Source of the DNA: an uncultured virus (IMG/VR IMGVR_UViG_3300047323_000263)
Taxonomy: Duplodnaviria; Heunggongvirae; Uroviricota; Caudoviricetes; Schitoviridae
Length of the DNA: 20,000 nucleotides
IMG/VR virus record: IMGVR_UViG_3300047323_000263
Reading direction: 5' to 3' (one strand)
Part shown: one piece after another, positions 4,648-18,495 of the stretch
Numbering within the stretch: position 1 is the stretch's first letter
Layout of the letters: each line of letters begins with the position of its first letter
Program-made: the position numbers and the translations under genes
Notes under the pieces: generated by a model
Told to the model about the DNA's origin: nothing
Seen by the model: the letters and a program-made list of their open reading frames with translations, nothing else
Databases searched by the model: none

Positions 4648-4845
4648 TCACGGGGTGTTGAGATTGATGAACTGGCGCACGAGCACGTCCAGCTGATCCG
4701 TGTCGATCTGATTCCCACAGCTGGCTCGAAAGGCCAGCAGGGTGGACTCGAGCGCGTTGTAGCAGTCGCCGCACATGAACCTGTAGCGCTTCTCGTCGAC
4801 TAGCGCCCAGGCGTTTGGCTTGCCGCACTCTTTACACGGACGCAA
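4648..4845 (-). CDS. small Zn-finger-like protein (CKEC...CGDC)
   Basis: 3' part of ORF 4648..4965; probable TTG start overlapping the dcd end. Confidence 0.6.
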   Translation of the reverse strand: MRPCKECGKPNAWALVDEKRYRFMCGDCYNALESTLLAFRASCGNQIDTDQLDVLVRQFINLNTP

Positions 4846-5356
4846 TCGCTTCCACCGGTCGGTTGGCCTGATTCTGGTACTTGCCGGCGTAGTAGCGGCG
4901 CTCACTCGTCTGGTGGAAGACGACTTGCGCAATGGCAGCTCCGGCCGGGATGACCAGGCCGTCATTGCCGTGATAGACGAGCTCGAGCGTGAGGAAGCCC
5001 TTCCATCCCGGTTCGATCACCGTGTTGAAGACCGAGAGTCCTTGCCGCGCCCAGGTGCTCTTGTCGTGAACGATGCCGGTGAGGTTGCCCGGCATGTCGA
5101 ACTCCTCGATGGCCGAGGCAATCGTGAAGCGGCCCATCTTCTTGTGATAGGCCACGACCTTGCCGCCTGCATCGCGCTCGGTGGAGAGCACGTGATGACG
5201 GATGTGGTCGGTTGAGCAGAACTGGATCTCCTGCTTGATGCGAATGTCGTAGCCAGTTTCCCCGAGCCCGGAGGTGACGCCGTGCTCATGGACCTTGCCT
5301 TCCAACATGTTCTTGATCGGCGCTGCGATGAGCAGGTCCGTACCGTTGATGACCAT
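4832..5356 (-). CDS. dcd: dCTP deaminase (N4 gp26-like)
   Basis: GYDIR, DKSTWARQG and NTVIEPGWKGFLTLEL motifs, C-terminal YAGKYQNQ. Confidence 0.92.
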   Translation of the reverse strand: MVINGTDLLIAAPIKNMLEGKVHEHGVTSGLGETGYDIRIKQEIQFCSTDHIRHHVLSTERDAGGKVVAYHKKMGRFTIASAIEEFDMPGNLTGIVHDKSTWARQGLSVFNTVIEPGWKGFLTLELVYHGNDGLVIPAGAAIAQVVFHQTSERRYYAGKYQNQANRPVEAIASV

Positions 5357-6819: not shown

Positions 6820-7893
6820 TTACTCGCGCAGGTATTGAGCGAGGCTCGACATCGAACGGGCAAAGCTCGGGTGTTGACGCAGATGCGGCTGGCGAGCCAT
6901 CACTGAGCGGAAGAACAGGATGCGGAACGACAGGTCGAAGCGGTTTGCGTAGGTGCAAAGCGCATCGAAGTTGAGGTCGTTGACGTTCTCCATCAGGTGA
7001 GCGATGGTTGCCCACTTGGTCGACGGGTCCGTCGGCACCGGCGTGTTCTCCGGGCTGCGGACAACCTGATCGATCTTCACCAGATTCTGGAAGACCTTCA
7101 CGTAGGTGACGAACTCGGTCGCAATGCCCGAGGTGATCGTGCCCGTGAAGATCGGCGTCTTCGACATGAGGTCGTGGCCAGCGTAGTTCGGCAGCTGGAG
7201 CAGACTGTTCATGAACTCCCAGGTGCGCGGCGAGCAGAACGTCTTCTCGTTGTGATCCGGGCGGAAGTCCATCAGCTTGCTCGGATACTGCGAGAGGAAC
7301 GAGACAATGCGGCTGTCCCAGTTTTGCTTGAGCGCCACGTCGTAGAGCCACTCTTCGAAGTTGACTTCGAGCTCGAGGTGGATCATGCGCGACTGCATCG
7401 CCGTCGACAGCTGGTTGACGATCGCCCGGTCGGTGGCCAGATTGCCGGCCGCCGAGATCACGCAGTTCTCGTGCAGCTTGTGCTGTCCGACCATTCGATC
7501 GAGCACGAGCTTGTAGGCGGCAGCTTGCGTGGCCTTCGCACCCGAGTTGAACTCGTCGAGGAACAACATCCAGCCCTGATGGGTCTGGTCGCCATTCTTG
7601 TCACGCGGCAGCGGCGTGTTCTCGAGCGGGAACAGGTCAGCGAACGGCGCGAAGCGGGCAAAGCCGTTCTCGTCGAAGCGGGGCAATCCGGAGAGATCCT
7701 CGGGGGCCGAGGTGGAGAGGCGGTGGTCGATGACCTTCAGATCGAGATCGTCAGCCACCAGCTTCATGATGCTGGACTTGCCGACGCCCGGTGAGGCGGT
7801 CACGAAGGGGACCAGGCCTGCGTACAGTGCGTCGGTGATGAAACCGCGGAGTTGGCGAGGGGAGCAGCGATATGCGTCGAGAATGTTGGACAT
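6820..7893 (-). CDS. MoxR-like AAA+ ATPase (N4 gp24-like)
   Basis: Walker A SPGVGKS, Walker B LFLDE, AAGN sensor, SPRTW motif. Confidence 0.9.
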   Translation of the reverse strand: MSNILDAYRCSPRQLRGFITDALYAGLVPFVTASPGVGKSSIMKLVADDLDLKVIDHRLSTSAPEDLSGLPRFDENGFARFAPFADLFPLENTPLPRDKNGDQTHQGWMLFLDEFNSGAKATQAAAYKLVLDRMVGQHKLHENCVISAAGNLATDRAIVNQLSTAMQSRMIHLELEVNFEEWLYDVALKQNWDSRIVSFLSQYPSKLMDFRPDHNEKTFCSPRTWEFMNSLLQLPNYAGHDLMSKTPIFTGTITSGIATEFVTYVKVFQNLVKIDQVVRSPENTPVPTDPSTKWATIAHLMENVNDLNFDALCTYANRFDLSFRILFFRSVMARQPHLRQHPSFARSMSSLAQYLRE

Positions 7894-8978: not shown

Positions 8979-9301
8979 GCTGCCATCCCCATCATCGCCT
9001 TCCAGTCCATGATGCAGATCACGCGCTGGTTGTTCGAGCAGAGCTCGGGCTGACCCGGCACGATGCCGTACCAGCGCAGATACCAGTCGCCGTCATACGT
9101 CCGGGTGTGGACGTTGATGGGCTGCGCTTTCCACATCTTGCCGGGGTAGACACCTGATGGCATCGACGTGGAGTACTCACGCAAGTTATCGAAGGCCTCT
9201 TGGCTCATCGTCGCGTGCGTGTCCGTCAGCAGAATGTCTGCGACGGCCGGCTGCGCCCAATGGTTGCCGAGCGCGTCGGTGATCGGAGGGATCATGTTCA
9301 C
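8975..9301 (-). CDS. hypothetical phage protein
   Basis: 108 aa with IPPITDALGNHWAQP and YSTSMPSGVYPGKMWK; coupled to neighbours, strong SD. Confidence 0.78.
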   Translation of the reverse strand: MNMIPPITDALGNHWAQPAVADILLTDTHATMSQEAFDNLREYSTSMPSGVYPGKMWKAQPINVHTRTYDGDWYLRWYGIVPGQPELCSNNQRVICIMDWKAMMGMAA

Positions 9302-9411
9302 GTCCCCTCCTTCGTGAGCTCCGCGACAGCCAGCAGCATTTCACGGAAGCAGTGGACGGTGCCGAGGGCGCAGAGCACGAAAGCGCCGATTTCGATGGGG
9401 GTGATGCTCAC
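9298..9411 (-). CDS. 37-aa hydrophobic peptide
   Basis: Manual ORF, GTG start, GTGA overlaps on both ends, AGGA SD. Confidence 0.55.
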   Translation of the reverse strand: MSITPIEIGAFVLCALGTVHCFREMLLAVAELTKEGT

Positions 9412-9725
9412 TTCCTTTCTCCTTGGTTCCAGAGTTGTTCGAGATGATCCAACCAACGAAAGCGATACAGCTGCCCTTGCTCGTGGCTGATCTCTCCCAA
9501 CCGGACACCGGCTTCACAGCACAGCCAGCTCTCCAAGAACTTGTGTTCACCCAGGCGGATCTGGATCATGTCGACCGCCTGTTCATACTGACGCGGCTCG
9601 ATGTTGCCGCTATCACATGCAACCAGCAGAGCGTGGCAGAGAAAACGCTCATGCGTCTTCGTTGCTTTGTAGTCCTTGCCATCCCACACGTATTGGCGTG
9701 CCACGCTGAACGGATTCTTGCCCAT
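9408..9725 (-). CDS. hypothetical protein
   Basis: 105 aa from ATG 9725; the longer start overlaps a terminator. Confidence 0.7.
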   Translation of the reverse strand: MGKNPFSVARQYVWDGKDYKATKTHERFLCHALLVACDSGNIEPRQYEQAVDMIQIRLGEHKFLESWLCCEAGVRLGEISHEQGQLYRFRWLDHLEQLWNQGERK

Positions 9726-9758
9726 CTTTACTTCCCACTCCAAAGCGCAAAGCAATTT

Positions 9759-9780
9759 AAAAAGGCCCACATCGCAGGCC
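9759..9780 (-). terminator. probable Rho-independent terminator
   Basis: GGCCTGC-GAT-GTGGGCC-TTTTT on the minus strand (2 GU pairs). Confidence 0.6.
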
Positions 9781-10062
9781 CGGTAAGGCAGGGTAAATCC
9801 GTATGGACTGGAATTTTTACTGGCTGCATTCGGTAGACGGTATTTTGCGTTAACCGTTTGCGAATGTGAAGAGATTTTTCAAGATGTGTCGAATCGTAAA
9901 AATCCTTCCCCTTTTCAAAGCCCCGACGTTCTGATAACCCCGTGTTTTCTTAAGGCTCCCTTAATGTTTAAGTCTTTGATTTTGCACGAATCACCTACTT
10001 TGTAGTACCTGATACGTACACGAAGCAAACATTACAAACCTTCCAACCGGTCAGGAAATTTC

Positions 10063-10080
10063 CCTCAAACACATCTCTAA
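10063..10080. promoter_or_regulatory. conserved 18-bp motif copy D (CCTCAAA-CACATC-TCTAA)
   Basis: Exact match; overlaps the -10/+1 of a candidate sigma70 promoter. Confidence 0.72.
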
Positions 10081-10108
10081 TGTACCCGTCCGTAAGGCTT
10101 CGGATCAA
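10079..10108 (-). promoter_or_regulatory. candidate sigma70-type promoter
   Basis: TTGATC-18 bp-TACATT, with the same -10 hexamer as at 4582 and 12779. Confidence 0.5.
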
Positions 10109-10186
10109 TGACTCTTACACTGTTCATGCGTACAGTAATAATTTCCGTCACGTAAACGCCACAAATGTTTTGTCTATCCCAATCGG

Positions 10187-10215
10187 AAATAATGGGGCCA
10201 CCCGAAGATGGCCCC
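10187..10215 (-). terminator. terminator after RNAP2
   Basis: GGGGCCATC-TTCG-GGTGGCCCC-ATTATTT: cUUCGg loop, 9-bp stem. Confidence 0.8.
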
Positions 10216-10233
10216 GAATTTCATTACTGAGTC

Positions 10234-11445
10234 TTACGACAGCGCGTATTCAGCAGACATAATGTCCTGCCACATCGTCGGATCGAGCTTCGGGATTGCG
10301 ACGCTTTGACGCATGTGCTGGCCGATGACGAACGACAGCAGGTCCGACTTGGCGATCAGCATGAGCTGACGGTTGTACTGCTCGCGCAGGTCGTTGCCGT
10401 AGTTCGGCAGGCAGCGGAAGCAATCGTGAATAGCGATCACTTCGAAGGGCTTCGCCGGCAGCGAGTCGATCAGTTCCCGGATCTCCGCGTTGCCCACCAG
10501 GTCCACGTTGTCCGGATGCAGGTGATCGAGGATGCGGGCCGACAGGTAGCCCGAGTCCTTGTAGTGCTTCCACAGCTTCATCACCATCTCGTCGTCCTCG
10601 TCCGAGGCGAGCGACAGGCCTTCGCCCATGAGCGCCTTCTTGACGCGCTCGATGACAGCCGGGCTGTAGTTGCAGCGGCGGCCCATTTCCCGAACGATCA
10701 TGCCGTCGATCGAGTGGATGGTGTTCGCGCCGAGGCTGCGGCCGCTCTCCTTCGCCTGGTTGACTTCGCGGAAGGTGTCAATCGGCTCGTTGAGGAAGTG
10801 AACCGTCTCCTGCACCTTGGTCATCACCTTCACGTGAACGTGGAAGTTATCCGGCAGCACCCACGAGTTGACGAGCGCTTCGGCGTCCCAGAGCTTCAGG
10901 AAGAACTGGTTGAGCTCCCACGCGGCCGGTGCGGCACCTGCCATGACGTGGTAGAAGGCGGACAGCAGCGGGCCTTCTCCGAAGATCTCACGCGGCTCAC
11001 GCTCGGAACCATAGAGGGAAGTCATGATCGCCTGCTTGCAGTCATCACGCTTGATCTTGGCGCCCTCTCCGACCACATCCAGCATGTAGCCGTAGATGAT
11101 TGTGTAGGCGTCGGCCCGCTCCGCCACGCTCTGCACCCAGCGGTTGACCACGTTGCAGATCTCGGCAGCACGGCGGTCGCCCGTGAGTGCGGCGAGCAGT
11201 TGCAGGCCCGAGCTGGTCGCATCGAGCGAGATCGGGTAACCGCAGGGAATACCCTGCACTGCCTTCTCGTAGGCCTTCACGCCCGCGTAGTAGAGCGCCG
11301 GCGTCTCGGCAGTGGCCAACATCTCGTGCAGGTGGTCCTCGTGCTCGGCAAACCAGTCGAGGCGCTCTTCCCACTTGGCCTTGTCCAGCCCGTAGCTCGA
11401 GGCGATGTCCATTTTCAGGTATTGCATTCCGGTGAACTTTTGCAT
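10234..11445 (-). CDS. N4-like RNA polymerase II subunit 2 (RNAP2, gp16-like)
   Basis: 403 aa from ATG 11445; T7-family motif A LDATSSGLQ, motif B KQAIMTSLYG, motif C IHDCF. Confidence 0.95.
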   Translation of the reverse strand: MQKFTGMQYLKMDIASSYGLDKAKWEERLDWFAEHEDHLHEMLATAETPALYYAGVKAYEKAVQGIPCGYPISLDATSSGLQLLAALTGDRRAAEICNVVNRWVQSVAERADAYTIIYGYMLDVVGEGAKIKRDDCKQAIMTSLYGSEREPREIFGEGPLLSAFYHVMAGAAPAAWELNQFFLKLWDAEALVNSWVLPDNFHVHVKVMTKVQETVHFLNEPIDTFREVNQAKESGRSLGANTIHSIDGMIVREMGRRCNYSPAVIERVKKALMGEGLSLASDEDDEMVMKLWKHYKDSGYLSARILDHLHPDNVDLVGNAEIRELIDSLPAKPFEVIAIHDCFRCLPNYGNDLREQYNRQLMLIAKSDLLSFVIGQHMRQSVAIPKLDPTMWQDIMSAEYALS

Positions 11446-11476
11446 GATTGGCCTCTTAAAGTCCGATTGAACAACC

Positions 11477-11511
11477 AAAAAGAAAAAGGCCACCGGGTTA
11501 GGGTGGCCTTT
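11477..11511 (-). terminator. terminator closing the plasmid-like cassette
   Basis: AAAGGCCACC-CTAACCC-GGTGGCC-TTTTTCTTTTT on the minus strand. Confidence 0.85.
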
Positions 11512-11537
11512 CGATAACAGTGGTACTGCGGTGATTG

Positions 11538-11732
11538 CTACAGACGCTCGCGTGCGTATTTGACGAAGGCTGAAAGCCTCAGTCGAAGGCGTAGCTCGAA
11601 CTTTTCTGCGCGGGGGTGCGCCAGTGTTGCGGCGAATTGCTCTACCACGACCTTGGCTCGGTCCCCTTCCGCGCGCTGAAGCATCTCGAATGCTGCTTCT
11701 AGCTCTGTCTCCGTCATCGGTGAATCAGTCAC
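11538..11732 (-). CDS. small hypothetical protein
   Basis: 64 aa, GTGA overlap with the upstream gene. Confidence 0.6.
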   Translation of the reverse strand: MTDSPMTETELEAAFEMLQRAEGDRAKVVVEQFAATLAHPRAEKFELRLRLRLSAFVKYARERL

Positions 11733-11983
11733 GACACGATTTCCAGTCGCTTCTCGATGCGGTCCAGCCGTTTGCGCAAGCCGTCGAGCTCGCGGTTCTG
11801 GCGTGCGTCAGCGCCTACGATGTCGCCCAGGTGGTGCAGCATGCCGGCGTAGTGCTCCTCGAGCGTGTTGAGGCGCAGCTTCACGTCACCGAAGCCTTCC
11901 TGCATCTCTTGACGCATTGCCTTCACGTCGTTGCGCAGTGCAACAAGGGTTTCGTGCATCAGCTTCATGTCGGGTTCTGGCAT
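11729..11983 (-). CDS. small coiled-coil protein
   Basis: 84 aa with heptad pattern (...LRKRLDRIEKRLEIV), AGGAG SD. Confidence 0.75.
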   Translation of the reverse strand: MPEPDMKLMHETLVALRNDVKAMRQEMQEGFGDVKLRLNTLEEHYAGMLHHLGDIVGADARQNRELDGLRKRLDRIEKRLEIVS

Positions 11984-11995
11984 GTGGGCTCCTGG

Positions 11996-12751
11996 TCAGA
12001 ATAGAAGTTTGGTTTGAGGATCCGGTTCGAACTCGAAGCGCAGGGCAATGACCTTGCGTCCGGCGTTGACCGGTGACCATTTGACGATCAGTCCGTTCTT
12101 CTCGCGCAACTCCTTGACTGCTGGCTCGATGATTCTCTCGCGCAGTGCTTTGAAGTTCGCCCGGTAGGTCGGGCTGGCTTCCATCACGTCCTGAAACTCT
12201 TCGATGGTCGGGGAGTAGCGGCCGGCGCCCTGCCACGACTTGAGGCACTCGAACAGCCGCCACGAGTAGATCGAGCGGAACGCTGCCGCGTGCTTGAGCT
12301 TGTACGTGGTGAACTCGGTGCGCAGGCCGAATAGGAACGGCACCAGGTCGGGATGCCAGCGGACCTCTACGGTGCCCTCGCCCTTCGCGTACTTGCCTGT
12401 GATGACCCAGGCCCGCACTTCCCGGACGACGCCTCGTCTGCCGGGCATCTCCACGACGACCTTGGGCTTCTGGAGCTCCTCGGCACCGGATTGCAGCTGC
12501 TGGTAAGCGGCGTCGAGCGTAATGCCGAAAGTCTCGGCGTACTCCATTGCCGACAGCTTGACCGTCTGCATCTGCTCGCTGAACAGGCCGCGGGTGTCCG
12601 TGCTGTCGGTCTTGGCCAGCGCTGCTGCGATGAATCGCTTCTCAGGCAGGCTCAGTCCGTGAGCTGAACGGGTGACGGCATTGGCCATGTTCACCTTGCG
12701 GTCTGCAATGGCGGTCTGGCTGGTCGGTTTGGCAGTGAGAGTGTTGGGCAT
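11996..12751 (-). CDS. repB: plasmid replication initiator, Rep_3 / RepB (RepE/pi-like winged-helix) family
   Basis: NAVTRSAHGLSLPEKRFI, AYQQL, WV...Y..GEG.VEVRWHPDLVPFLFGLRTEFTTYKL, SIYSWRLFECL, FKALRERIIEPAVKEL and GRKVIALRFEF are typical Rep_3 motifs; adjacent to iterons. Confidence 0.93.
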   Translation of the reverse strand: MPNTLTAKPTSQTAIADRKVNMANAVTRSAHGLSLPEKRFIAAALAKTDSTDTRGLFSEQMQTVKLSAMEYAETFGITLDAAYQQLQSGAEELQKPKVVVEMPGRRGVVREVRAWVITGKYAKGEGTVEVRWHPDLVPFLFGLRTEFTTYKLKHAAAFRSIYSWRLFECLKSWQGAGRYSPTIEEFQDVMEASPTYRANFKALRERIIEPAVKELREKNGLIVKWSPVNAGRKVIALRFEFEPDPQTKLLF

Positions 12752-12769
12752 TGGAACAGTCGCTCGGTT
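12749..12769 (+). repeat. solitary iteron overlapping the rep start codon
   Basis: CATTGGAACAGTCGCTCGGTT closely matches the iteron consensus. Confidence 0.8.
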
Positions 12770-12778
12770 AATGGAACG

Positions 12779-12808
12779 AATGTATCACTGCGTGCCAATT
12801 GGTGGCAA
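12779..12808 (-). promoter_or_regulatory. candidate rep promoter
   Basis: TTGCCA-18 bp-TACATT with extended -10 TG (TGaTACATT); GTGCCAAT occurs twice nearby. Confidence 0.55.
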
Positions 12809-12837
12809 TGACGGAGCATGTGCCAATAGGTTTCCCC

Positions 12838-12873
12838 CGTTTTGTATACGTTTTACCGTTTTACTACGTTTTA
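12838..12873. repeat. AT-rich tract with 4 x CGTTTT (putative DNA unwinding element)
   Basis: CGTTTTGTATACGTTTTACCGTTTTACTACGTTTTA between the iterons and rep. Confidence 0.7.
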
Positions 12874-12913
12874 GGCACCCTTCGAGCCTTGCTGGGCATG
12901 GCTTTGCGGGGCG

Positions 12914-12997
12914 CTATTGGAACAGCCACTCGGTTCTATTGGAACAGCGGCTCGGTTCATTGGCACAGCCACTCGGTCTATGGAACAGCCACTCGGT
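12914..12997 (+). repeat. four tandem 20-22 bp iterons (plasmid origin)
   Basis: CTATTGGAACAGCCACTCGGTT / CTATTGGAACAGCGGCTCGGTT / CATTGGCACAGCCACTCGGT / CTATGGAACAGCCACTCGGT. Confidence 0.92.
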
Positions 12998-12998
12998 C

Positions 12999-13007
12999 GT
13001 ATCCACA
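12999..13007 (+). promoter_or_regulatory. DnaA box-like site
   Basis: GTATCCACA is an 8/9 match to TTATCCACA and abuts the iteron array. Confidence 0.65.
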
Positions 13008-13010
13008 GGC

Positions 13011-13244
13011 TTATTCGGCGTATCCCATTTTGATCAGACGAGTGAATGCGTCCTCCACCGCGCGCTCCGGGATGCCGAGCTGCTCGGTAATCTTCTCCAT
13101 TGAGACAGGCTCGTTGAAATACTGCTGGGTGCAGAGGTACGAGAACACCGTGAAGGCGTTGGCCTTCATCTTGGCCATGACTCCGCTAAGAATCAGATCA
13201 CGGAGTTCCTGATCGTTGGGAACGTGTTTGATGCGCGGGATCAT
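13011..13244 (-). CDS. small winged helix-turn-helix protein
   Basis: 77 aa; AFTVFSYL...SMEKITEQLGIPERAVEDAFTRLIKMGY is a wHTH pattern; GGAGG SD. Confidence 0.75.
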   Translation of the reverse strand: MIPRIKHVPNDQELRDLILSGVMAKMKANAFTVFSYLCTQQYFNEPVSMEKITEQLGIPERAVEDAFTRLIKMGYAE

Positions 13245-13245
13245 G

Positions 13246-13599
13246 TCAGTAGCCCTCCTTCTCGGCTTTGGCGATCTCGCGGTCGATCGCCTTCTCCAGT
13301 GTGTCGGTCACGAATGACTTCAGGTTCGGGATGCGATCCCACGTCTTCAGCATGTGGAGCTTGGTCTTGATGCGCTTGGGCACATCGAAGTTGGCCTGCA
13401 CGATCTCGTCCTGCCCGTCCCACGGCCGTCGGCGGCGCGGCTCCTCCCTATCTTCCTTGGTTCCTAGGTGGCTAGGTTCCTTGCTAGGTAGGTTGGTAGG
13501 TAGACTGATAGGTTCCAAGGTAGCTTCGTTGCTAGGCTCGGATGGAACGGCTGCGCTCCGGCGTGCCAGCACAAGGCCTTCGAGATGGTCTTTAGACAT
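13246..13599 (-). CDS. ribbon-helix-helix centromere-binding protein (type Ib ParB/ParG-like)
   Basis: ATG overlaps the parA 3' end; disordered N-terminus followed by a C-terminal RHH pattern QANFDVP-KRIKTKLHMLK-NLKSFVTDTLEKAI. Confidence 0.75.
   Translation of the reverse strand: MSKDHLEGLVLARRSAAVPSEPSNEATLEPISLPTNLPSKEPSHLGTKEDREEPRRRRPWDGQDEIVQANFDVPKRIKTKLHMLKTWDRIPNLKSFVTDTLEKAIDREIAKAEKEGY
13457..13536. repeat. 4-bp-periodic TAGG/WWSS array inside the RHH gene (putative centromere)
   Basis: ttgg ttcc tagg tggc tagg ttcc ttgc tagg tagg ttgg tagg taga ctga tagg ttcc aagg tagc ttcg ttgc tagg. Confidence 0.65.
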
Positions 13600-14230
13600 G
13601 AGCAGCCACCTTTCGCTCAAGGCGTTCGACGATGAACGCGGTCATATCCTTCACCAGAATCGACGGCGAGCCCTTGTAGAACTCGGTGATGCCCTGGCCC
13701 TTGGCCAGCGCCTGCCAGTAGCGATTGTTGGTCGGAATGTGGCCGGGGATGATCGGGCCGACGGCCGCCAGCTTGTTGCGAGCTGAACTCGCCACCGCAT
13801 TGCCGTGCGTCTCGTTGAGCAGGAAGATGAACTTCTTGCCTTCCTCATCGCACAGGTCGACCGTCGGCATGACTGCCTCGAGGTCGCCTACAGCATGCTT
13901 ACAGGGGATGATGACCAGATCCGCCACTTTAATGGCTTCCCGGTTGATCGGTGCCACCTGCGGCGGGGTGTCGATGATGCACCACTTGAAGAGCCCGGAC
14001 TTCTTGAGCTTGGCGTGCTCGTGGGCGAGTGCGGCCGCATCCTTGATGATGGCGAATGACGGCGTGTCGGTGGTCTTGCTGCGGCGATTCCACCAGCCGG
14101 CGTGAGTGCCTTGCCGGTCCAGGTCCATCGTGACGACTGGGCCGAATTCCTCGAGCGCCACACACAGATGGGCTGCGTGCAGGCTCTTGCCTACTCCGCC
14201 TTTCAGGCAGGAGAAGACGATTGTTTTCAT
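13592..14230 (-). CDS. parA: ParA partition ATPase (short, type Ib)
   Basis: 212 aa; deviant Walker A KGGVGKS, DLDRQG, IIDTPP, ADLVIIP; no N-terminal HTH. Confidence 0.93.
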   Translation of the reverse strand: MKTIVFSCLKGGVGKSLHAAHLCVALEEFGPVVTMDLDRQGTHAGWWNRRSKTTDTPSFAIIKDAAALAHEHAKLKKSGLFKWCIIDTPPQVAPINREAIKVADLVIIPCKHAVGDLEAVMPTVDLCDEEGKKFIFLLNETHGNAVASSARNKLAAVGPIIPGHIPTNNRYWQALAKGQGITEFYKGSPSILVKDMTAFIVERLERKVAAHV

Positions 14231-14276
14231 GCTGAACTCCTCGAAGGTTGGTTCAGCACGGAAGCGTATACGAATT

Positions 14277-14344
14277 TAGGTAGGAATCAAGGTAGACCGG
14301 TAGCTAACTAGCTCCCTATCTACCTAGCTCCCTAGCAACCTAGG
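14277..14344. repeat. 4-bp-periodic array upstream of parA (putative centromere/operator)
   Basis: tagg tagg aatc aagg taga ccgg tagc taac tagc tccc tatc tacc tagc tccc tagc aacc tagg; overlaps a weak TTGATT-16-TACGCT promoter candidate. Confidence 0.7.
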
Positions 14345-14345
14345 C

Positions 14346-14642
14346 CTACGCAGCCTTGTCCAGTGCGGGTTCGAAGTGAATCGACAGCATGTCGAGCGCA
14401 TAGACCAAGGCCTGCATTGCGTGTGCTCCGCGGCCCAGATTGATCGCTTGCTCGGTGCCACGGATGCGCACCTGAAGGTTGCCGTCGTCGAGCAGCTCGA
14501 GCACCGTGCTGTTGACCATCGTGATGCCGATGCTCGGCTGGGCGAGCGGGGCAGGGGAGTGGGCCTGCGCCGGTGCGGGGACCGGTTCACGAGCACGCTC
14601 GTTGATTGCGTCGTAGGCCGGATAGCGCCAGGTGGTTTTCAT
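14346..14642 (-). CDS. hypothetical protein with Pro/Ala linker
   Basis: 98 aa ORF packed downstream of the RNAP1 cluster. Confidence 0.65.
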   Translation of the reverse strand: MKTTWRYPAYDAINERAREPVPAPAQAHSPAPLAQPSIGITMVNSTVLELLDDGNLQVRIRGTEQAINLGRGAHAMQALVYALDMLSIHFEPALDKAA

Positions 14643-14645
14643 GCT

Positions 14646-14801
14646 TTAGCCTTTCGTTGATTTGAAAATGGTGCATGCTCCGCCCGCATGGCGGATACGA
14701 TTGGCCAGCTTCACGGCCTCGTACCAGTTCTCGGTCGAGAGCAGCACCTTGGAGTTAATGTCGGAGACGACGATGTATTCGATCGAGACTTGCGTTTTCA
14801 T
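14646..14801 (-). CDS. 51-aa hypothetical protein (MKTQVSIEYIVVSD...)
   Basis: Manual ORF, ATGA overlap with the RNAP1 stop, GAGGA SD. Confidence 0.65.
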   Translation of the reverse strand: MKTQVSIEYIVVSDINSKVLLSTENWYEAVKLANRIRHAGGACTIFKSTKG

Positions 14802-15619
14802 ACTGTGAGTTCCTCGTTCTTGAACTCGATCACTGCCTTATTCCAAGGTGTGCCTTGGTAATTAGCATGATGACCTTGGCAGTATGTGCGGCCGCGTTTG
14901 CAGTAGCGGTGGTCGAAGTGGAACTCATTGTCATGCTTGATGAGTGTGGTGATGACTTCCCTCGCGGTGCGGTCGTACTTCTCGAATGCGCGCTTGCGCT
15001 TCTCGAAGTCGCCCGGCTCATCGTCTTCCTTGGCTCGGTCAAGGCCCCTCCATTTGTTCTTGATCATCGTTGCAGTGTCGAGGTTGACGCTGAACTTGAT
15101 CTTGTTCATCCGGTTGATGTGGTCCAGACACACATCATCTTCGTGGTGGTTGTTGCGCAGGATCACGCTGTTATTGTTCAGGAGATACCCTGACTGGTCG
15201 TTGCGCGTGAGGTGCTTGGGCGGCACGACCATCGGCAGCGGATACTGGAAGCGGTCGAGCTCGGCCTGCACATCGTCCGCGATCTCCGCCTTGACGATGA
15301 ACTGCTTGACCGTGCCCCGTTCCATGTAATCCACCAGGTCGATGTCCACGGCCTTGAGGATCCAGTCGGCGCATTCCTGCGCGCTCTTGCAGTGGTGGCG
15401 CAGCGTGCCGATGAGGGTCGGCAGGTCGCAGCGCTTGTGCAGCGCCATCTGGACCAGCAGGTCGATCGTGAACTTCTCGGGCAGCCCGTGATGGCGGCCA
15501 TAGGCACGCAGGTCCGCGTCCTTGAAGTTCTCGAACTCCGCACGCATGCGCGGCATGAGCTGGTTCTTGCTGAACAGAGCTTCGAGCTCTTCCTGATGCT
15601 GCTTCTTCGCGTCTTGCAT
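14798..15619 (-). CDS. N4-like RNA polymerase II subunit 1 (RNAP1, gp15-like)
   Basis: 273 aa; LFSKNQLMPR, QYPLPMVVPP, DVCLDHIN and HRYCKRGRTYCQG (T7-type DxRGRxY, here with C for D). Confidence 0.93.
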   Translation of the reverse strand: MQDAKKQHQEELEALFSKNQLMPRMRAEFENFKDADLRAYGRHHGLPEKFTIDLLVQMALHKRCDLPTLIGTLRHHCKSAQECADWILKAVDIDLVDYMERGTVKQFIVKAEIADDVQAELDRFQYPLPMVVPPKHLTRNDQSGYLLNNNSVILRNNHHEDDVCLDHINRMNKIKFSVNLDTATMIKNKWRGLDRAKEDDEPGDFEKRKRAFEKYDRTAREVITTLIKHDNEFHFDHRYCKRGRTYCQGHHANYQGTPWNKAVIEFKNEELTV

Positions 15620-15630
15620 CGTGTGTCTCC

Positions 15631-15843
15631 TTAGACCGTGAGTTCTTCAAACGTGACCGTGCGCTTCATCATCCGGACGGTGGGATGCACGCCCGGTCGC
15701 TTGTTGCGGGCCTCGAGCCACTTCTTGGCCTCGGCCGGCGTGCTGAACGAGTGGATCAGGTGGTTTCCCTGACTCACGAGCACGACCTGCTCTTGCTTCA
15801 GAAACTGTTCGCCCATTGTTTTGGCGATGGTGCGCGTCAGCAT
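15631..15843 (-). CDS. small hypothetical protein
   Basis: 70 aa, GGAGG SD, TAATG coupling. Confidence 0.72.
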   Translation of the reverse strand: MLTRTIAKTMGEQFLKQEQVVLVSQGNHLIHSFSTPAEAKKWLEARNKRPGVHPTVRMMKRTVTFEELTV

Positions 15844-16019
15844 TACGCTTCCTCCTTGAATTCGAGCTTGCAGCTCCCTTCACAGTTTTGACAGAACGCT
15901 TCGTCGAACGTCTGGGACAGATCCCATTCCTGGTCTTCCATGTTCCAGATCGCCCATGCGTCGCGCATTACGTTGTCGCTGCCGCAGTCGGTACAGACGG
16001 GTCTGAGCAGAGCGGCCAT
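15843..16019 (-). CDS. 58-aa Zn-ribbon protein (CTDC...CQNC)
   Basis: Manual ORF: MAALLRPVCTDCGSDNVMRDAWAIWNMEDQEWDLSQTFDEAFCQNCEGSCKLEFKEEA. Confidence 0.72.
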   Translation of the reverse strand: MAALLRPVCTDCGSDNVMRDAWAIWNMEDQEWDLSQTFDEAFCQNCEGSCKLEFKEEA

Positions 16020-16020
16020 G

Positions 16021-16416
16021 TCAGAACGTTCCCCAGTACTTGGGCTTGTGGATGCCGTCTTGCATGTGCTTCACCCACGCTTCGTCGAAGTACAGGTTGG
16101 ACGGTCCCCACATGAACATGAACGAGATGTCCTCGTCCTTCAGGCCAGCCAGGCCGCAGCCGATGCGGGTCACGTGGAACTCCAGATCCGGATTGCCCTT
16201 CGCGTAGGCCATGAAGCCCTTCACGTAGTCCCGGATCGTGGCGAGTGGCAGCGTCTCGATGTTGCGGTCCTTGGTGGGGATGGCGAACGAGCTGCCGTAG
16301 TGGCCATAACCCATGCCCCAACGGGCACCGTGGTTCTTGTATGCGTCCTTGGCAGCGCCTGCGCCGTGAACGCCGGCTTCATTGGAGCCGAATACGAAGA
16401 TGGGCTTCGATTTCAT
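16021..16416 (-). CDS. phage protein with macro-domain-like motifs (IFVFGSN family)
   Basis: IFVFGSNEAGVHGAGAA...FAIPTK...FHVTRIGCGLAG; the Gly-rich loops resemble macrodomain ADP-ribose-binding loops. Confidence 0.75.
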   Translation of the reverse strand: MKSKPIFVFGSNEAGVHGAGAAKDAYKNHGARWGMGYGHYGSSFAIPTKDRNIETLPLATIRDYVKGFMAYAKGNPDLEFHVTRIGCGLAGLKDEDISFMFMWGPSNLYFDEAWVKHMQDGIHKPKYWGTF

Positions 16417-16529
16417 GATTTCCTGTGCGGTTTGAGTTCGACGGTGTAATCGTTTTGAACGCAGTGCAGGGCAGGGCAGAAGATCTGCACCAGCCAGCAA
16501 ACGAGTTTGTCCAGCAGGTGCGTCTTCAT
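16413..16529 (-). CDS. 38-aa hypothetical peptide
   Basis: Manual ORF filling the gap, ATGA overlap with the next gene. Confidence 0.45.
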   Translation of the reverse strand: MKTHLLDKLVCWLVQIFCPALHCVQNDYTVELKPHRKS

Positions 16530-16536
16530 GGCGTGC

Positions 16537-16935
16537 CTACCCCTGAGTCACGATCCACTCATTGAGAATGGTGGCGAGCGCTCTCGCCTGGTTGATGTCG
16601 GTATTGGCGAAGGTGTCGCGCAATGTGAGGTTGTGCTGCTTGGTCATCTCATAGAGCTCGAGCAGCGCAGTGCCGTTGTGCAGCGCCCAGATGCGCCAGA
16701 GGCTCAGGTACATCTGCCAGAGGTGGTCATCCGGATACGGGAAGATGGGAGGCTTGCCCTTGCCGAGCTTCCAGTTGTAGCCACCGATGTCATAGCCTTT
16801 CACGTCGCACTGATACCACTGCTCGATGGTGCGGCCATCAGGCATCTTGGCGAACAGCGCACTGAAGCGCTTGTCACCAAGCGTGCTGCATTCGAAACCG
16901 ATGGCACCCTTGCCACCTTCCCATTTGATCTTCAT
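16537..16935 (-). CDS. hypothetical protein, possibly NADAR-like
   Basis: FECSTLGDKRFSALFAKMPDGRTIEQWYQCDVKG resembles the ExSS...SA...xExxYQxxK pattern of NADAR proteins. The CDS is well supported; the family is tentative. Confidence 0.6.
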   Translation of the reverse strand: MKIKWEGGKGAIGFECSTLGDKRFSALFAKMPDGRTIEQWYQCDVKGYDIGGYNWKLGKGKPPIFPYPDDHLWQMYLSLWRIWALHNGTALLELYEMTKQHNLTLRDTFANTDINQARALATILNEWIVTQG

Positions 16936-16957
16936 GGAGTTCTTCTTCTCTTTGTTG

Positions 16958-17254
16958 TTAGGGTTGTTGAGTTACCTGTTTGATCAACTCGATCACAGCA
17001 TTCCCGCGGAAATCTTTGTTCCGATTGGGTACAACGATGCGAACCATCAACTGTCCTGCGCTGACAGCCTCGACAATCGCGGCAATCTCTTGCGCAACCT
17101 TGTCGTCTGTCTGTACAGCGTCATAGAGCCAGTCGATGTACTCCTCTTTGGGACAGTCCCGAAACAAAACACTGCCAGGCAACACATCAAAGTACTTTCT
17201 GTTGGGCCAACGGCCCTCAGTCACGGAGATCGTGAACGGATCGTTACTTTTCAT
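16958..17254 (-). CDS. hypothetical protein
   Basis: 98 aa from ATG 17254, just downstream of a hairpin promoter candidate. Confidence 0.65.
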   Translation of the reverse strand: MKSNDPFTISVTEGRWPNRKYFDVLPGSVLFRDCPKEEYIDWLYDAVQTDDKVAQEIAAIVEAVSAGQLMVRIVVPNRNKDFRGNAVIELIKQVTQQP

Positions 17255-17949: not shown

Positions 17950-18495
17950 CTAGGCCGCTTTCCGGTTTAGCTCGAGTTGAGCATCCACAAAATCAGACAT
18001 CGCGGTCTGGTCTTCGACAAATCCGATGTTGAATGACGGAATGCCATAGAGCGAAGCGAGTCGCACGGCATTGCCTGTCCCGCCTTGCGGTTGCTTCTGC
18101 TGGGACCAGTAGGCGACGAACTGCACCGGATCACCGAGATCGTGGCCGAGGATGATGGCGACGTTGCGCATCATCAGCTTCTTGCCACCGTTGCTCAGTC
18201 CATCCCAGTACGGGTGTGACATCTTCGCAACAGCTTCGAGTTCGTCGGTGTAGGGACACACAGCGTAGCTGCGTCCATCCGGAGACTTTGCGTTGAATCC
18301 ATCCCAGGGCAGATAGATCTCACGGGCAGCCGGCACATGGCCTGCCTCCCATGCCTGGTCTGCGCCTTGGGCGTAACCGGAGCGCACCATCCAGCCGAGA
18401 TGATCGAGCTGTCGTGCGATGTCAACGATCCCCTCACACACTTCGAGAGGGGTTTGACGCGGGCCGATACCCGCATATTTGAGCGTCTTGGGCAT
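17950..18495 (-). CDS. SLOG-superfamily (DprA/Smf-like Rossmann fold) phage protein
   Basis: YAGIGPRQTP...VRSGYAQGADQAWE...IYLPW...RNVAIILG...GGTGNAVRLA...IPSFN. Confidence 0.8.
   Translation of the reverse strand: MPKTLKYAGIGPRQTPLEVCEGIVDIARQLDHLGWMVRSGYAQGADQAWEAGHVPAAREIYLPWDGFNAKSPDGRSYAVCPYTDELEAVAKMSHPYWDGLSNGGKKLMMRNVAIILGHDLGDPVQFVAYWSQQKQPQGGTGNAVRLASLYGIPSFNIGFVEDQTAMSDFVDAQLELNRKAA

What the first reader, a model, noticed from the sequence alone, without database searches (positions are those of the whole stretch)
11512..14345. N4-like phage carrying a complete plasmid replicon and partition cassette between its two RNAP II genes (candidate N4-type phage-plasmid)
Seen: parA, RHH partner, wHTH, iteron origin, Rep_3 initiator and two small ORFs, all co-oriented with intact frames, sit between RNAP1 and RNAP2 and end in their own terminator. 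Known: N4-like phages are classically lytic and replicate with their own DNA polymerase, and RNAP1/RNAP2 are normally adjacent or separated by a few small genes. Rep_3 plus iterons plus type Ib par is the standard low-copy theta plasmid kit. Inference: this phage can be maintained as an extrachromosomal plasmid prophage, a lifestyle known for P1-, N15- and SSU5-like groups but not one I know as established for Schitoviridae. I cannot verify novelty without a literature and database search.
Basis: partly seen in the sequence, partly recalled or inferred. Interest (0 to 1): 0.95.

Follow-up and report, generated by a model that had tools for sequence, protein, structure and literature searches.

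The report
N4-like phage carrying plasmid replicon
A soil phage of the N4 group, a group regarded as purely lytic, carries an intact plasmid origin, initiator and partition system between two of its core genes, so it can probably persist in its host as a plasmid, although that has not been shown.

Summary
Between the N4-type RNAP1 (14798-15619) and RNAP2 (10234-11493) genes, all on the minus strand, lie:
- a ParF-like ParA and a small partner protein, with two arrays of TAGG boxes spaced 8 bp apart;
- a 77-aa winged-helix ORF;
- a complete iteron origin and an intact Rep_3 initiator;
- two small ORFs and a terminator-like hairpin.

The cassette is composite.
- The par genes plus a winged-helix (HTH_36) protein with its own iterons are shared by 4 of 26 related viral contigs. 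Those four are complete 75-79 kb N4-like genomes.
- In this phage a 1.0-kb ori-rep unit typical of small Burkholderiaceae plasmids has replaced most of that protein and its iterons.
- It is not an assembly chimera. An independent run holds one 75,661-bp contig that spans the whole region.

By protein name and contig length, relatives also occur in two cultured Caballeronia assemblies. An Acinetobacter N4-like element is on record both as a phage and as a closed circular plasmid.

Plasmid-like persistence is the best reading (about 0.6) but is unproven, and I found no repressor. Ten literature searches found no paper describing an N4-like phage-plasmid. This scan has reported the same kind of element before on other DNA (e1-6046583, e1-6046597, e1-6086755).

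The parts
14798..15619 (-). RNAP1, the small subunit of the N4-type RNAP II; upstream border of the slot
   Evidence: phrog_2166, E 5.3e-96. 44-64% identical to the RNAP1 of the 26 viral loci.
14346..14801 (-). Two small ORFs of unknown function: orf51 (14646-14801) and orf98 (14346-14642). They belong to the phage backbone, not to the plasmid kit.
   Evidence: No Pfam or PHROG family. orf98 has homologues at the same place in L007 (46%) and L026 (52%).
14277..14344 (.). Centromere-like array upstream of parA: TAGG/CCTA boxes with an 8-bp period, direct and then inverted
   Evidence: TRF period 8, 5.4 copies, score 51-65. The pattern TAGG-N4-TAGG-N4-TAGG matches 5 times, only here and at 13447-13476, against 0.01 expected. 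Equivalent AACCAAGG-type arrays lie upstream of parA in L006, L007 and L009. Protein binding was not tested.
13592..14230 (-). ParA, a small ParF-like (type Ib) Walker ATPase of 212 aa with the deviant Walker A motif KGGVGKS
   Evidence: Pfam and PHROG hits. The family profile matches solved ParF of TP228 over its full length (4dzz, E 6.3e-17) and ParA 5u1g (E 9.5e-18). There are 50 invariant columns in 22 relatives. dN/dS against L009 is about 0.17.
13246..13599 (-). Partner protein (117 aa): a conserved N-terminal MSK...RKG..PA motif, a low-complexity linker and a C-terminal two-helix domain. Its start overlaps the parA stop.
   Evidence: Homologues follow parA in L006, L007, L009 and L026. 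The family is small: 20 representatives in 1.84 billion proteins. In the AF2 model residues 60-117 have pLDDT 87-96. The ribbon-helix-helix fold is suggested but not confirmed.
13444..13530 (.). Second array of the same 8-bp-spaced boxes, inside the linker-coding part of the partner gene
   Evidence: The same feature occurs in L006, L007, L009 and L026.
13011..13244 (-). wHTH77: probably the truncated N-terminal HTH_36 domain of the clade's former initiator
   Evidence: It aligns (26-30% identity) to the N-terminal part of the proteins at the same position in L006, L007, L009 and L026 (197-217 aa as aligned) and ends just after the recognition helix. HTH_36 scores E 2.9e-10 in L007 and 0.005 here. 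Homology to plasmid origins starts within a few bases of its stop codon.
12999..13007 (.). DnaA box (8 of 9 matches), abutting the outermost iteron
   Evidence: It is the only site in the 20-kb window within 1 mismatch of the consensus (the consensus is recalled). TGTGGA.A is invariant in all 8 aligned origins.
12918..12997 (.). Four tandem iterons with a 20-22 bp period
   Evidence: Their positions are conserved in Caballeronia plasmid p4 and in six viral-contig replicons. The specificity bases co-vary within each replicon.
12837..12874 (.). A+T-rich segment with four TAAAACG repeats, a candidate unwinding element
   Evidence: 65% A+T at 12840-12879. TRF score 51. The repeats are invariant in the 8 aligned origins. 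The role is inferred.
12752..12808 (-). Sigma-70-like promoter (TTGCCA-18-TACATT, with TG) and a fifth iteron (12752-12768) abutting the rep start codon: a candidate autoregulatory site
   Evidence: Function is inferred by analogy with Rep_3 plasmids.
11996..12751 (-). Rep_3 initiator, 251 aa, with WH1 and WH2 domains
   Evidence: Rep3_N 6e-32 and Rep3_C 1.3e-14. Matches solved pPS10 RepA (1hkq, 1e-14), F RepE (1rep, 4.8e-13, full length) and R6K pi (2nra). 82% identical to the sole Rep of Caballeronia plasmid p4. dN/dS is 0.04-0.06 against five homologues.
11729..11983 (-). orf84, a coiled-coil small protein of the clade backbone
   Evidence: Homologous to the ORF that follows the iterons in L009 (26% identity, E 2e-11). 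Similar ORFs are present in L006, L007 and L026.
11538..11732 (-). orf64, variable and apparently dispensable
   Evidence: No family hit. Positions 11464-11736 are replaced by 79 other letters in contigs of runs X3 and X4.
11484..11512 (-). Terminator-like hairpin ahead of RNAP2
   Evidence: 11 pairs and a T run. It is a consensus match only.
10234..11493 (-). RNAP2, the large subunit of the N4-type RNAP II; downstream border of the slot
   Evidence: phrog_2051, E 2.8e-157; Pfam RNA_pol. The conserved start MQKFTGMQ corresponds to 11445.

Best explanation
The window is the early and middle region of a roughly 75.8-kb N4-like (Schitoviridae-type) phage from a rhizosphere community. Its host is most likely one of the Burkholderiaceae.

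The phage belongs to a small clade that carries a plasmid-maintenance cassette in the variable slot between RNAP1 and RNAP2. The cassette comprises centromere-like box arrays, a ParF-like ATPase, a small adaptor, and an initiator with iterons. In this lineage the clade's own winged-helix initiator and its iterons were replaced. The replacement is a 1.0-kb unit: DnaA box, four iterons, an A+T-rich element, a promoter with a fifth iteron, and a Rep_3 gene. Units of this kind serve small Burkholderiaceae plasmids and other phage-plasmids.

Inferred mechanism:
1. After injection the genome circularises.
2. Rep binds the iterons and, together with host DnaA, recruits the host replisome for theta replication.
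3. The adaptor loads on the box arrays and ParA segregates the copies.
4. The phage DNA is then inherited as a low-copy plasmid, either as a plasmid prophage or as a stable carrier state, in addition to normal N4-type lytic growth.

Shown: gene content, intactness, conservation, the composite origin of the cassette, and the continuity of the assembly. Inferred: replication, partition, circularisation, and any switch between the two states.
For: - **N4-like backbone in the window.** RNAP1, RNAP2, the gp24-type ATPase, rIIA, ThyA and dCTP deaminase are present.
- **The replicon looks complete.** Both Rep_3 domains score above the cut-offs. Rep resembles solved RepE, RepA and pi. Five iterons are found against 0.01 expected. 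Every conserved origin element of Caballeronia plasmid p4 is present; p4 is an 8,158-bp circle whose only initiator is this Rep type. rep dN/dS is 0.04-0.06.
- **The closest phage Rep is experimentally tied to a plasmid state.** KS14 gp37 is 54.6% identical and also 251 aa long. KS14 was recovered as a plasmid from lysogens (PMC3091744, passages).
- **The par genes are old and constrained in the phage.** 4 of 26 related viral contigs carry parA plus the partner at the same place, followed by an HTH_36 protein and its own iteron array. ParA dN/dS is about 0.17, against 0.25-0.38 for RNAP1 and RNAP2.
- **Those four relatives are full phage genomes.** They are 74.7-78.5 kb with intact vRNAP genes. 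None of the four has a tyrosine integrase.
- **The assembly is not a chimera.** One 75,661-bp contig from another sample spans the cassette with rep. The window's own ParA sits on a contig of 75,792 bp.
- **Relatives occur in cultures.** RNAP2 (67% identity) and ParA (52%) of Caballeronia sp. LZ034LL are both on record with a longest contig of 77,218 bp, with accessions 8 apart. ParA (60%) of Caballeronia sp. TF1N1 is on a 79,569-bp contig.
- **Precedent in the same phage family.** A. baumannii pRBH2-3, a closed circular 75,126-bp 'plasmid' with an intact vRNAP, RNAP2 and ParB, is 99.6% identical over 91% of a 16-kb query to the Schitoviridae record vB_IME_Ab2712.
Against: - No experiment or read-depth data show a plasmid state for this phage.
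- The rest of its genome (vRNAP, capsid, terminase) could not be read, because no whole genome is held.
- I recognised no CI/Cro-like repressor or other lysogeny control among the window's ORFs. N4-type infection starts from an injected RNA polymerase (recalled), so how the lytic programme would be held off is unexplained.
- The cassette lies in the early region. It could therefore be expressed at every infection and serve lytic growth.
- I could not check circularity or coverage of the Caballeronia contigs. A phage contig in an isolate assembly can also come from a carrier culture or from contamination.
- The 127-bp terminal repeats of the related viral contigs are what an assembler gives for either a circle or a terminally redundant linear genome.
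- The adaptor's fold and its DNA binding are unconfirmed.
- Only 4 of 26 relatives carry the cassette, so it is dispensable for N4-like growth.
Confidence: 0.6

Rival explanations
1. The cassette serves lytic growth only. It is expressed with the early genes. Rep and the iterons recruit the host replisome for a first round of theta replication before the phage polymerase is made, and ParA with its adaptor positions the replicating genomes. No stable plasmid state exists.
For: - The cassette sits between two early genes on the same strand, with no strong terminator before it.
- I found no repressor.
- The phage keeps a full N4-type replication set in relatives: DNA polymerase, primase, helicase and SSB.
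Against: - Partition systems with centromere arrays are, as far as I know (recalled), tied to inheritance through cell division, which a lytic infection does not need.
- The closest phage Rep belongs to a proven plasmid prophage.
- Relatives turn up in assemblies of cultured bacteria, and one N4-like element is on record as a closed plasmid.
- 22 of 26 relatives grow without the cassette.
Confidence: 0.2
2. The ori-rep unit is a recent, functionless passenger. It is a fragment of a resident plasmid captured by illegitimate recombination that happened to destroy the winged-helix gene, and it will be lost.
For: - The unit is only about 1 kb.
- It has sharp homology borders.
- It truncates a gene.
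Against: - rep is intact in at least two diverged phage strains: the window, and the 89%-identical Rep on a 75,769-bp contig.
- All origin elements are retained.
- rep dN/dS is 0.04-0.06.
- The unit replaces a functionally analogous initiator-plus-iteron unit at exactly the same place, which is what selection for replication would give.
- The iteron copy number varies between strains, as in live replicons.
Confidence: 0.08
3. The unit is a weapon, not a replicon. Phage-borne iterons and Rep interfere, through incompatibility, with resident plasmids or rival phage-plasmids that use the same Rep type.
For: - The same Rep type (77-88% identity) serves other phage-like 30-50 kb contigs and small Caballeronia and Burkholderia plasmids.
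- Between two otherwise 98-99% identical phage strains, the rep and iteron region is about 18% diverged. Incompatibility pressure would produce such a pattern.
Against: - Nothing tested here points to interference rather than replication.
- A weapon would not need the DnaA box, the A+T-rich element or a partition system.
- The divergence pattern fits allele exchange of a working replicon just as well.
Confidence: 0.05
4. Assembly chimera: a plasmid fragment was joined to a phage contig by the assembler.
For: None beyond the unusual content. Contigs of run X1 break at 12251-12272, 12862-12877, 12929-12958 and 14171-14192.
Against: - The X1 pieces overlap each other with 0 differences.
- Run X2, from another sample and study, has one 75,661-bp contig across 9000-17000.
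- Runs X3 and X4 also cover the junctions.
- The par part is shared with four complete viral contigs.
Confidence: 0.02

Closest known systems
Burkholderia phage KS14 (P2-like myovirus kept as a plasmid prophage)
   Same: The Rep_3 initiator has the same length (251 aa) and is 54.6% identical. KS14 also carries a ParA. It was recovered as a plasmid from lysogens (PMC3091744, passages). The host family is the same.
   Different: KS14 is a 32-kb P2-like temperate phage with a serine recombinase. Its virion type and transcription strategy are unrelated to N4. Its ParA did not appear among the hits to the window's ParA.
Iteron plasmids of the Rep_3 family: Caballeronia zhejiangensis p4 (NZ_CP084289.1), and the classical pPS10 RepA, F RepE and R6K pi
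   Same: Rep is 82% identical to p4's sole initiator. The origin layout is identical: DnaA box, 4 iterons, TAAAACG repeats, and a fifth iteron at the start codon. Both WH domains are present and match solved structures.
   Different: Those are plasmids without phage genes. Here the unit is embedded in a phage early operon, and its upstream border truncates a phage gene.
Type Ib partition system ParF-ParG-parH of plasmid TP228
   Same: The ParA profile matches ParF over its full length (4dzz, E 6.3e-17). The partner is small, with a disordered N-terminal tail and a compact C-terminal domain. The candidate centromere consists of tetramer boxes with an 8-bp period upstream of parA. The parH description is recalled, not checked.
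   Different: The partner shows no sequence match to ParG or to any solved protein. Its ribbon-helix-helix fold is not confirmed. A second box array lies inside the partner's own coding sequence.
Uncultured N4-like relatives (viral contigs behind L006, L007, L009, L026) and the contigs of Caballeronia sp. LZ034LL and TF1N1
   Same: The phage backbone is the same (RNAP2 60-69% identical). parA and the partner sit in the same slot (ParA 51-75% identical). The box arrays are the same.
   Different: They use an HTH_36 protein of about 200-240 aa with its own iterons. None of the four complete relatives has Rep_3. The Caballeronia contigs could not be read.
Acinetobacter baumannii pRBH2-3 (NZ_CP110465.1) and Acinetobacter phage vB_IME_Ab2712 (OK149216.1)
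   Same: An N4-type element (RNAP1, RNAP2, intact 3,649-aa vRNAP) with partition genes, on record both as a closed circular plasmid and as a Schitoviridae phage.
   Different: It is a distant relative (RNAP2 33% identical, ParA 31%). It has a large ParB and no Rep_3, and its par genes lie elsewhere in the genome. The phage record is marked UNVERIFIED. I found no paper on it.
Classical phage-plasmids P1, N15 and SSU5
   Same: A phage genome with its own plasmid replicon and partition system and no need for integration (recalled; Pfeifer et al. 2021, PMC7969092, passages).
   Different: Those have known immunity repressors and are myo- or siphoviruses. The main text of that survey says few phage-plasmids are podoviruses and contains no occurrence of 'N4-like' (supplements not read).
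Coliphage N4 and cultured Schitoviridae
   Same: The core early and middle genes and their order.
   Different: No cultured N4-like record in the 50,697-record phage collection matched this Rep. Only the Acinetobacter record matched this ParA, at 31% identity.

Membership tests
N4-like phages (Schitoviridae) | Two-subunit T7-like RNAP II (RNAP1 plus RNAP2) | tested here: met
   phrog_2166, E 5.3e-96, and phrog_2051, E 2.8e-157.
N4-like phages (Schitoviridae) | Giant virion-packaged RNA polymerase gene | not testable with these tools
   It lies outside the 20-kb window and no whole genome is held. It is present and uninterrupted in all four cassette-bearing relatives.
N4-like phages (Schitoviridae) | Other core genes in N4 order (gp24-type ATPase with its partner, rIIA, nucleotide metabolism) | tested here: met
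   phrog_1297, phrog_1314, phrog_2979, phrog_85 and phrog_1663.
Rep_3 iteron replicons | Initiator with WH1 and WH2 domains | tested here: met
   Rep3_N 111 bits (cut-off 22.4) and Rep3_C 54.6 bits (cut-off 21.1). Full-length match to RepE, 1rep.
Rep_3 iteron replicons | Tandem iterons next to rep, plus a copy at the rep promoter or start | tested here: met
   4 tandem copies plus 1; 5 matches against 0.01 expected. The positions are conserved in 8 replicons.
Rep_3 iteron replicons | DnaA box and A+T-rich element in the origin | tested here: met
   The only near-consensus DnaA box of the window is at 12999-13007, and 12840-12879 is 65% A+T. Both are invariant across the family alignment.
Rep_3 iteron replicons | Autonomous replication of the unit | not testable with these tools
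   Only indirect: the same unit is the sole replicon of plasmid p4.
Type Ib (ParF/ParG-like) partition systems | Small ParA without an N-terminal HTH, with a deviant Walker A | tested here: met
   212 aa, with KGGVGKS at residues 10-16. Best solved matches are ParA 5u1g and ParF 4dzz.
Type Ib (ParF/ParG-like) partition systems | Ribbon-helix-helix centromere-binding partner encoded downstream | tested here: inconclusive
   - The gene is present and conserved.
- The AF2 model has a confident two-helix C-terminal domain but no strand in the monomer.
- Foldseek gave no hit at E <= 0.001. Its weak top hits are RHH proteins: NikR, ParD, pCXC100 ParB 3no7.
- The PDB profile search gave nothing relevant.
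Type Ib (ParF/ParG-like) partition systems | ParA binds the partner | tested here: inconclusive
   The complex prediction gave weak support: score 0.42, best of 3 controls 0.00.
- The mark was reached by 116 of 157 solved complexes and by 2 of 215 mismatched pairs.
- At 0.60 or under it was reached by only 18 of those 157, and by both mismatches that passed.
- The runs agree in at least 0% of their contacts. The partner's pLDDT is at least 58.
- My own alignments were used, so these counts hold only roughly.
- A ParF-ParG-type complex has, as I recall, been solved, so the pass may come from memory.
Type Ib (ParF/ParG-like) partition systems | Repeated centromere boxes near parA | tested here: met
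   Two arrays of 8-bp-spaced boxes, conserved in relatives. Binding was not tested.
Phage-plasmids | Complete virion, lysis and packaging genes on the same molecule | not testable with these tools
   Not readable for the window's own contig. Relative G004 has vRNAP, portal, major head protein, tail proteins and endolysin among the 62 ORFs scanned. No ORF there was labelled terminase, and I did not resolve this.
Phage-plasmids | Plasmid replication and partition genes | tested here: met
Phage-plasmids | No integrase; kept extrachromosomally | tested here: inconclusive
   No integrase family hit among the window's ORFs. PF00589 matched 0 of 5 related records. Serine recombinases were not searched. 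Maintenance itself was not tested.

The most novel reading that the evidence does not exclude
A clade of N4-like phages of Burkholderiaceae are true phage-plasmids. They persist for generations as low-copy circles and can still produce virions. The initiator slot between RNAP1 and RNAP2 is exchanged among unrelated, mutually compatible replicons (HTH_36 with iterons, or Rep_3 with iterons) under incompatibility pressure.

A bolder corollary concerns dormancy. N4 early promoters are read only by the polymerase that the virion injects (recalled). A copy inherited by a daughter cell would therefore be silent by default, so dormancy might need no classical repressor.
Probability: 0.3. Interest if true: 0.88.

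Novelty: new variant of a known kind. Interest (0 to 1): 0.72.

Why it matters
N4-like phages are treated as strictly lytic and are used or proposed as therapeutic and biocontrol agents partly for that reason.

A lineage that can be inherited as a plasmid would:
- change how their ecology in soil and the rhizosphere is read (persistence, carrier states, gene transfer);
- add a podovirus family with a virion-borne RNA polymerase to the known phage-plasmids;
- raise a clear mechanistic question: how is a programme that is launched by an injected enzyme kept silent?

The replacement of one initiator-iteron unit by an unrelated one at the same site is a clean natural example of replicon swapping in a phage. 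It also gives a 1-kb unit that can be tested directly.

Tried and rejected
- **Whole genome of the window.** None is held, so vRNAP, capsid and terminase of this phage could not be checked.
- **Metagenome scan with a ParA alignment.** None of the 80 loci had N4-like genes.
- **Search for isolate genomes.** RNAP2 was found in 1 of 401 sampled genomes of the order, and that one was the MAG already known. Rep was found in 1 of 401, at 47% identity. I could not reach the Caballeronia assemblies. The genome-contig scan gave only 3 MAG loci.
- **Other long RNAP1-RNAP2 gaps.** L020 (3.1 kb) and L022 (4.2 kb) hold HNH endonucleases, DUF3768 and a Band_7 protein, not plasmid modules.
- **Close Rep homologues in viral contigs (L128-L136).** None is flanked by N4 genes.
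- **RNA genes.** No Rfam family and no tRNA in the window.
- **Invalid ParA figure.** The ungapped ParA comparison printed was out of register. It is replaced by the codon-aligned figure. Synonymous sites are near saturation there, so the ratios are rough.
- **Repressor.** None recognised by Pfam or PHROGs.
- **Literature.** Ten full-text searches found no paper describing an N4-like or Schitoviridae phage-plasmid. The hits I opened (PMC13366799, PMC3564109, PMC4533152, PMC10783043; passages only) were irrelevant to this point.

Full report
**What is there**

The 20-kb window is about 58-60% G+C. Its plausible genes all lie on the minus strand. PHROG and Pfam scans identify an N4-type early and middle region:
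- rIIA, 2-664
- thymidylate synthase, 1123-2034
- dCTP deaminase, 4832-5356
- the gp24/gp25-type ATPase pair, 6820-7893 and 5360-6508
- RNAP2, 10234-11493
- RNAP1, 14798-15619
- a DprA-like protein, 17950-18495

Between RNAP1 and RNAP2, in the direction of transcription, lie:
- two small ORFs (14646-14801 and 14346-14642);
- an array of TAGG/CCTA boxes with an 8-bp period (14277-14344);
- ParA (13592-14230);
- a 117-aa partner whose start overlaps the parA stop (13246-13599) and which holds a second box array (13444-13530);
- a 77-aa winged-helix ORF (13011-13244);
- a DnaA box (12999-13007);
- four iterons (12918-12997);
- an A+T-rich stretch with four TAAAACG repeats (12837-12874);
- a sigma-70-like promoter (12808-12779);
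- a fifth iteron touching the rep start codon (12752-12768);
- Rep_3 (11996-12751);
- orf84 and orf64;
- a terminator-like hairpin (11484-11512).

The repeats are far beyond chance. The iteron core gives 5 matches against 0.01 expected, and the triple-box pattern gives 5 matches, confined to the two arrays, against 0.01 expected.

**Is it an artefact?**

No. The stretch is held by rhizosphere metagenome runs.
- Contigs of run X1, which may be the source, tile 9000-17000 without a single difference.
- Run X2, from another sample and study, has one 75,661-bp contig running through the whole region.
- Runs X3 and X4 cover the junctions too.
- The window's ParA is on record on a contig of 75,792 bp. 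A Rep 89% identical to the window's is on one of 75,769 bp. Both are N4-like genome sizes.

**The cassette is composite**

I collected 26 related viral contigs by RNAP2.
- The four closest (L006, L007, L009, L026; RNAP2 60-69% identical) carry parA and the partner in the same slot.
- The other 22 do not, and none of the 26 has a Rep homologue.
- In 20 of those 22 the two polymerase genes lie 211-1485 bp apart. The two long gaps, in L020 and L022, hold HNH endonucleases, DUF3768 and a Band_7 protein.

In the four cassette-bearing relatives the partner gene is followed by a protein of about 200-240 aa with an HTH_36 winged helix. That protein is followed by an array of 4-7 iterons whose sequence differs in each phage. 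This is the signature of an initiator with its origin.

The window's 77-aa ORF aligns to the N-terminal winged helix of those proteins and stops just after the recognition helix. DNA homology to plasmid and other replicons covers only window positions 12014 to about 13011-13020 in every comparison. In the origin alignment, similarity begins within a few bases of that ORF's stop codon.

The simplest history is this. A clade-wide par-initiator-iteron cassette had the distal two thirds of its initiator gene and its iterons replaced by a 1.0-kb Rep_3 ori-rep unit. orf84, downstream, again belongs to the clade backbone.

**The imported unit is a working type of replicon**

- Rep has both Rep_3 domains.
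- It matches solved RepA of pPS10, RepE of F and pi of R6K.
- Its nearest named relatives (74-82% identical) are from Caballeronia, Burkholderia and Paraburkholderia.
- In C. zhejiangensis plasmid p4, a closed 8,158-bp circle, it is the only initiator.
- It also sits at the start of an 80.8-kb F-type conjugative plasmid of Pandoraea.

I aligned the origins of the window, p4 and six viral-contig replicons. The DnaA box, the four iterons, a GCAAA motif, the four TAAAACG repeats and the fifth iteron at the ATG are all in register. Invariant iteron cores alternate with specificity positions that change together within each replicon.

rep is under strong purifying selection, with dN/dS of 0.04-0.06 against five homologues, although dS is saturated.

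The closest Rep in the phage collection is gp37 of Burkholderia phage KS14 (54.6% identical, same length). Its authors recovered KS14 as a plasmid from lysogens (PMC3091744, passages).

Other close Rep homologues (77-88% identical) sit next to an unrelated ParA on 30-50 kb phage-like contigs that carry endolysin, spanin, SSB and polymerase-exonuclease genes. This replicon type therefore serves several phage backbones.

**The partition part**

ParA is a 212-aa deviant-Walker-A ATPase. Its family profile matches ParF of TP228 and ParA 5u1g over their full length.

The partner belongs to a very small family: 20 representatives in 1.84 billion proteins. It has a conserved N-terminal motif, a variable low-complexity linker and a C-terminal domain that AlphaFold models confidently as two helices preceded by an extended segment.
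- The predicted ParA-partner complex received only weak support. The score was 0.42, with the best of 3 controls at 0.00.
- The mark was reached by 116 of 157 solved complexes and 2 of 215 mismatches. At 0.60 or under it was reached by only 18 of the 157, and by both mismatches that passed.
- The runs agree in at least 0% of contacts, and the partner's pLDDT is at least 58. My own alignments were used. A similar complex has, as I recall, been solved.

Within the clade ParA is at least as constrained as the core polymerase genes. Its dN/dS is about 0.17, against 0.25-0.38, with the caveat of near-saturated synonymous sites.

**Are the carriers real phages, and do they persist in cells?**

Relative G004 (77,934 bp) encodes the following among the 62 ORFs I scanned:
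- a 3,834-aa virion RNA polymerase
- portal, major head and tail proteins
- endolysin
- DNA polymerase, primase, helicase and SSB
- rIIA and rIIB

No ORF there was labelled terminase, and I did not resolve this. All four cassette-bearing relatives have uninterrupted vRNAP frames. None has a tyrosine integrase or a Rep_3 gene. Their 127-bp end repeats do not distinguish a circle from a terminally redundant linear genome.

In the large protein collection, RNAP2 (67% identical) and ParA (52%) of the cultured Caballeronia sp. LZ034LL are both on record with a longest contig of 77,218 bp, and their accessions are eight apart. ParA (60%) of Caballeronia sp. TF1N1 is on a 79,569-bp contig. I could not fetch these contigs, so circularity and depth are unknown.

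There is an independent precedent in the same phage family. A. baumannii pRBH2-3 is a closed circular 75,126-bp 'plasmid' with RNAP1, RNAP2, an intact 3,649-aa vRNAP and a ParB. It is 99.6% identical, over 91% of a 16-kb query, to the record 'Acinetobacter phage vB_IME_Ab2712'. That record is classified in Schitoviridae, marked UNVERIFIED and lists sewage as its source.

**How it most likely works, and what is missing**

The best reading (0.6) is that the phage genome can replicate from the iterons with host DnaA and the host replisome. ParA and the adaptor, acting on the box arrays, then segregate it, giving plasmid-like inheritance (a plasmid prophage or a stable carrier state) beside lytic growth. 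All of these steps are inferred.

The main gap is control. I recognised no repressor in the window. In N4 itself, early genes are read by the injected virion polymerase (recalled). That makes lysis after infection hard to avoid. It would, however, make an inherited copy silent by default.

The chief rival (0.2) is a purely lytic role for the cassette, which is co-oriented with the early genes.

Between the window and the X2 strain the flanks differ by 0.8-2.4%, but the rep and iteron segment differs by about 18%. X2 and X3 also carry an extra iteron. This fits allele exchange or incompatibility-driven divergence of a live replicon. It is the only hint for the 'interference' rival (0.05).

**Novelty**

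Phage-plasmids are a known kind. An N4-like one is not described in anything I could find. Ten full-text searches found nothing. The main text of the 2021 phage-plasmid survey has no occurrence of 'N4-like' and states that few phage-plasmids are podoviruses (PMC7969092, passages; supplements not read).

This scan has noted the same kind of element three times on other DNA. Two of those notes concern the same ParA family and claim closed 77-80 kb circles in cultured Burkholderiaceae. I could confirm the isolates only by protein name and contig length.

New here is the replicon replacement by a Rep_3 unit, with the truncated former initiator still in place. I rate the finding as a new variant of a known kind, with interest 0.72.

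Noticed in passing
window 13444-13530: The linker-coding part of the partner gene doubles as an array of the same 8-bp-spaced boxes found upstream of parA. The same is true in L006, L007, L009 and L026. Either the coding sequence serves as a second centromere, or the DNA repeats simply reflect a repetitive peptide (PSKE-like).
   Followed up: partly
window 12133-12836 and 13010-13014: Between the window and the 75,661-bp contig of run X2, the rep and iteron segment is about 18% diverged while the flanks differ by 0.8-2.4%. X2 and X3 carry one more iteron copy. This suggests allele exchange or incompatibility-driven divergence.
   Followed up: partly
window 11464-11736: In contigs of runs X3 and X4 this stretch, which holds orf64 and the terminator-like hairpin, is replaced by 79 other letters. 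orf64 is therefore dispensable.
   Followed up: no
L129, L130, L134, L136 (viral contigs of 30-50 kb): Phage-like contigs with endolysin, spanin, SSB and polymerase-exonuclease genes carry an unrelated ParA next to a Rep 77-87% identical to the window's. They are further candidate phage-plasmids of Burkholderiaceae that use the same replicon type.
   Followed up: partly
L001 (NZ_CP110465.1) and L002 (OK149216.1): The closed circular A. baumannii 'plasmid' pRBH2-3 is an N4-like genome with an intact vRNAP. It is nearly identical to a Schitoviridae phage record. I found no paper naming it.
   Followed up: partly
proteins P0147 and P0182: A ParA 51% identical to the window's and a Rep 80% identical both list 6 contigs and a longest contig of 43,090 bp. 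This may be a second, more distant N4-like lineage with a Rep_3 unit. It rests on a coincidence of contig length only.
   Followed up: no
L020:6936-10001 and L022:5812-10001: The RNAP1-RNAP2 slot is a general hot spot for accessory genes: HNH endonucleases, DUF3768 and a Band_7/SPFH protein.
   Followed up: partly
window 9770-10234: A low-G+C (49-52%) intergenic region downstream of RNAP2 holds a strong two-way hairpin (10193-10216) and promoter-like sites on both strands. It may be a transcription unit boundary.
   Followed up: no
One copy lies in the box array inside the partner gene and another lies just upstream of parA.
   Followed up: partly
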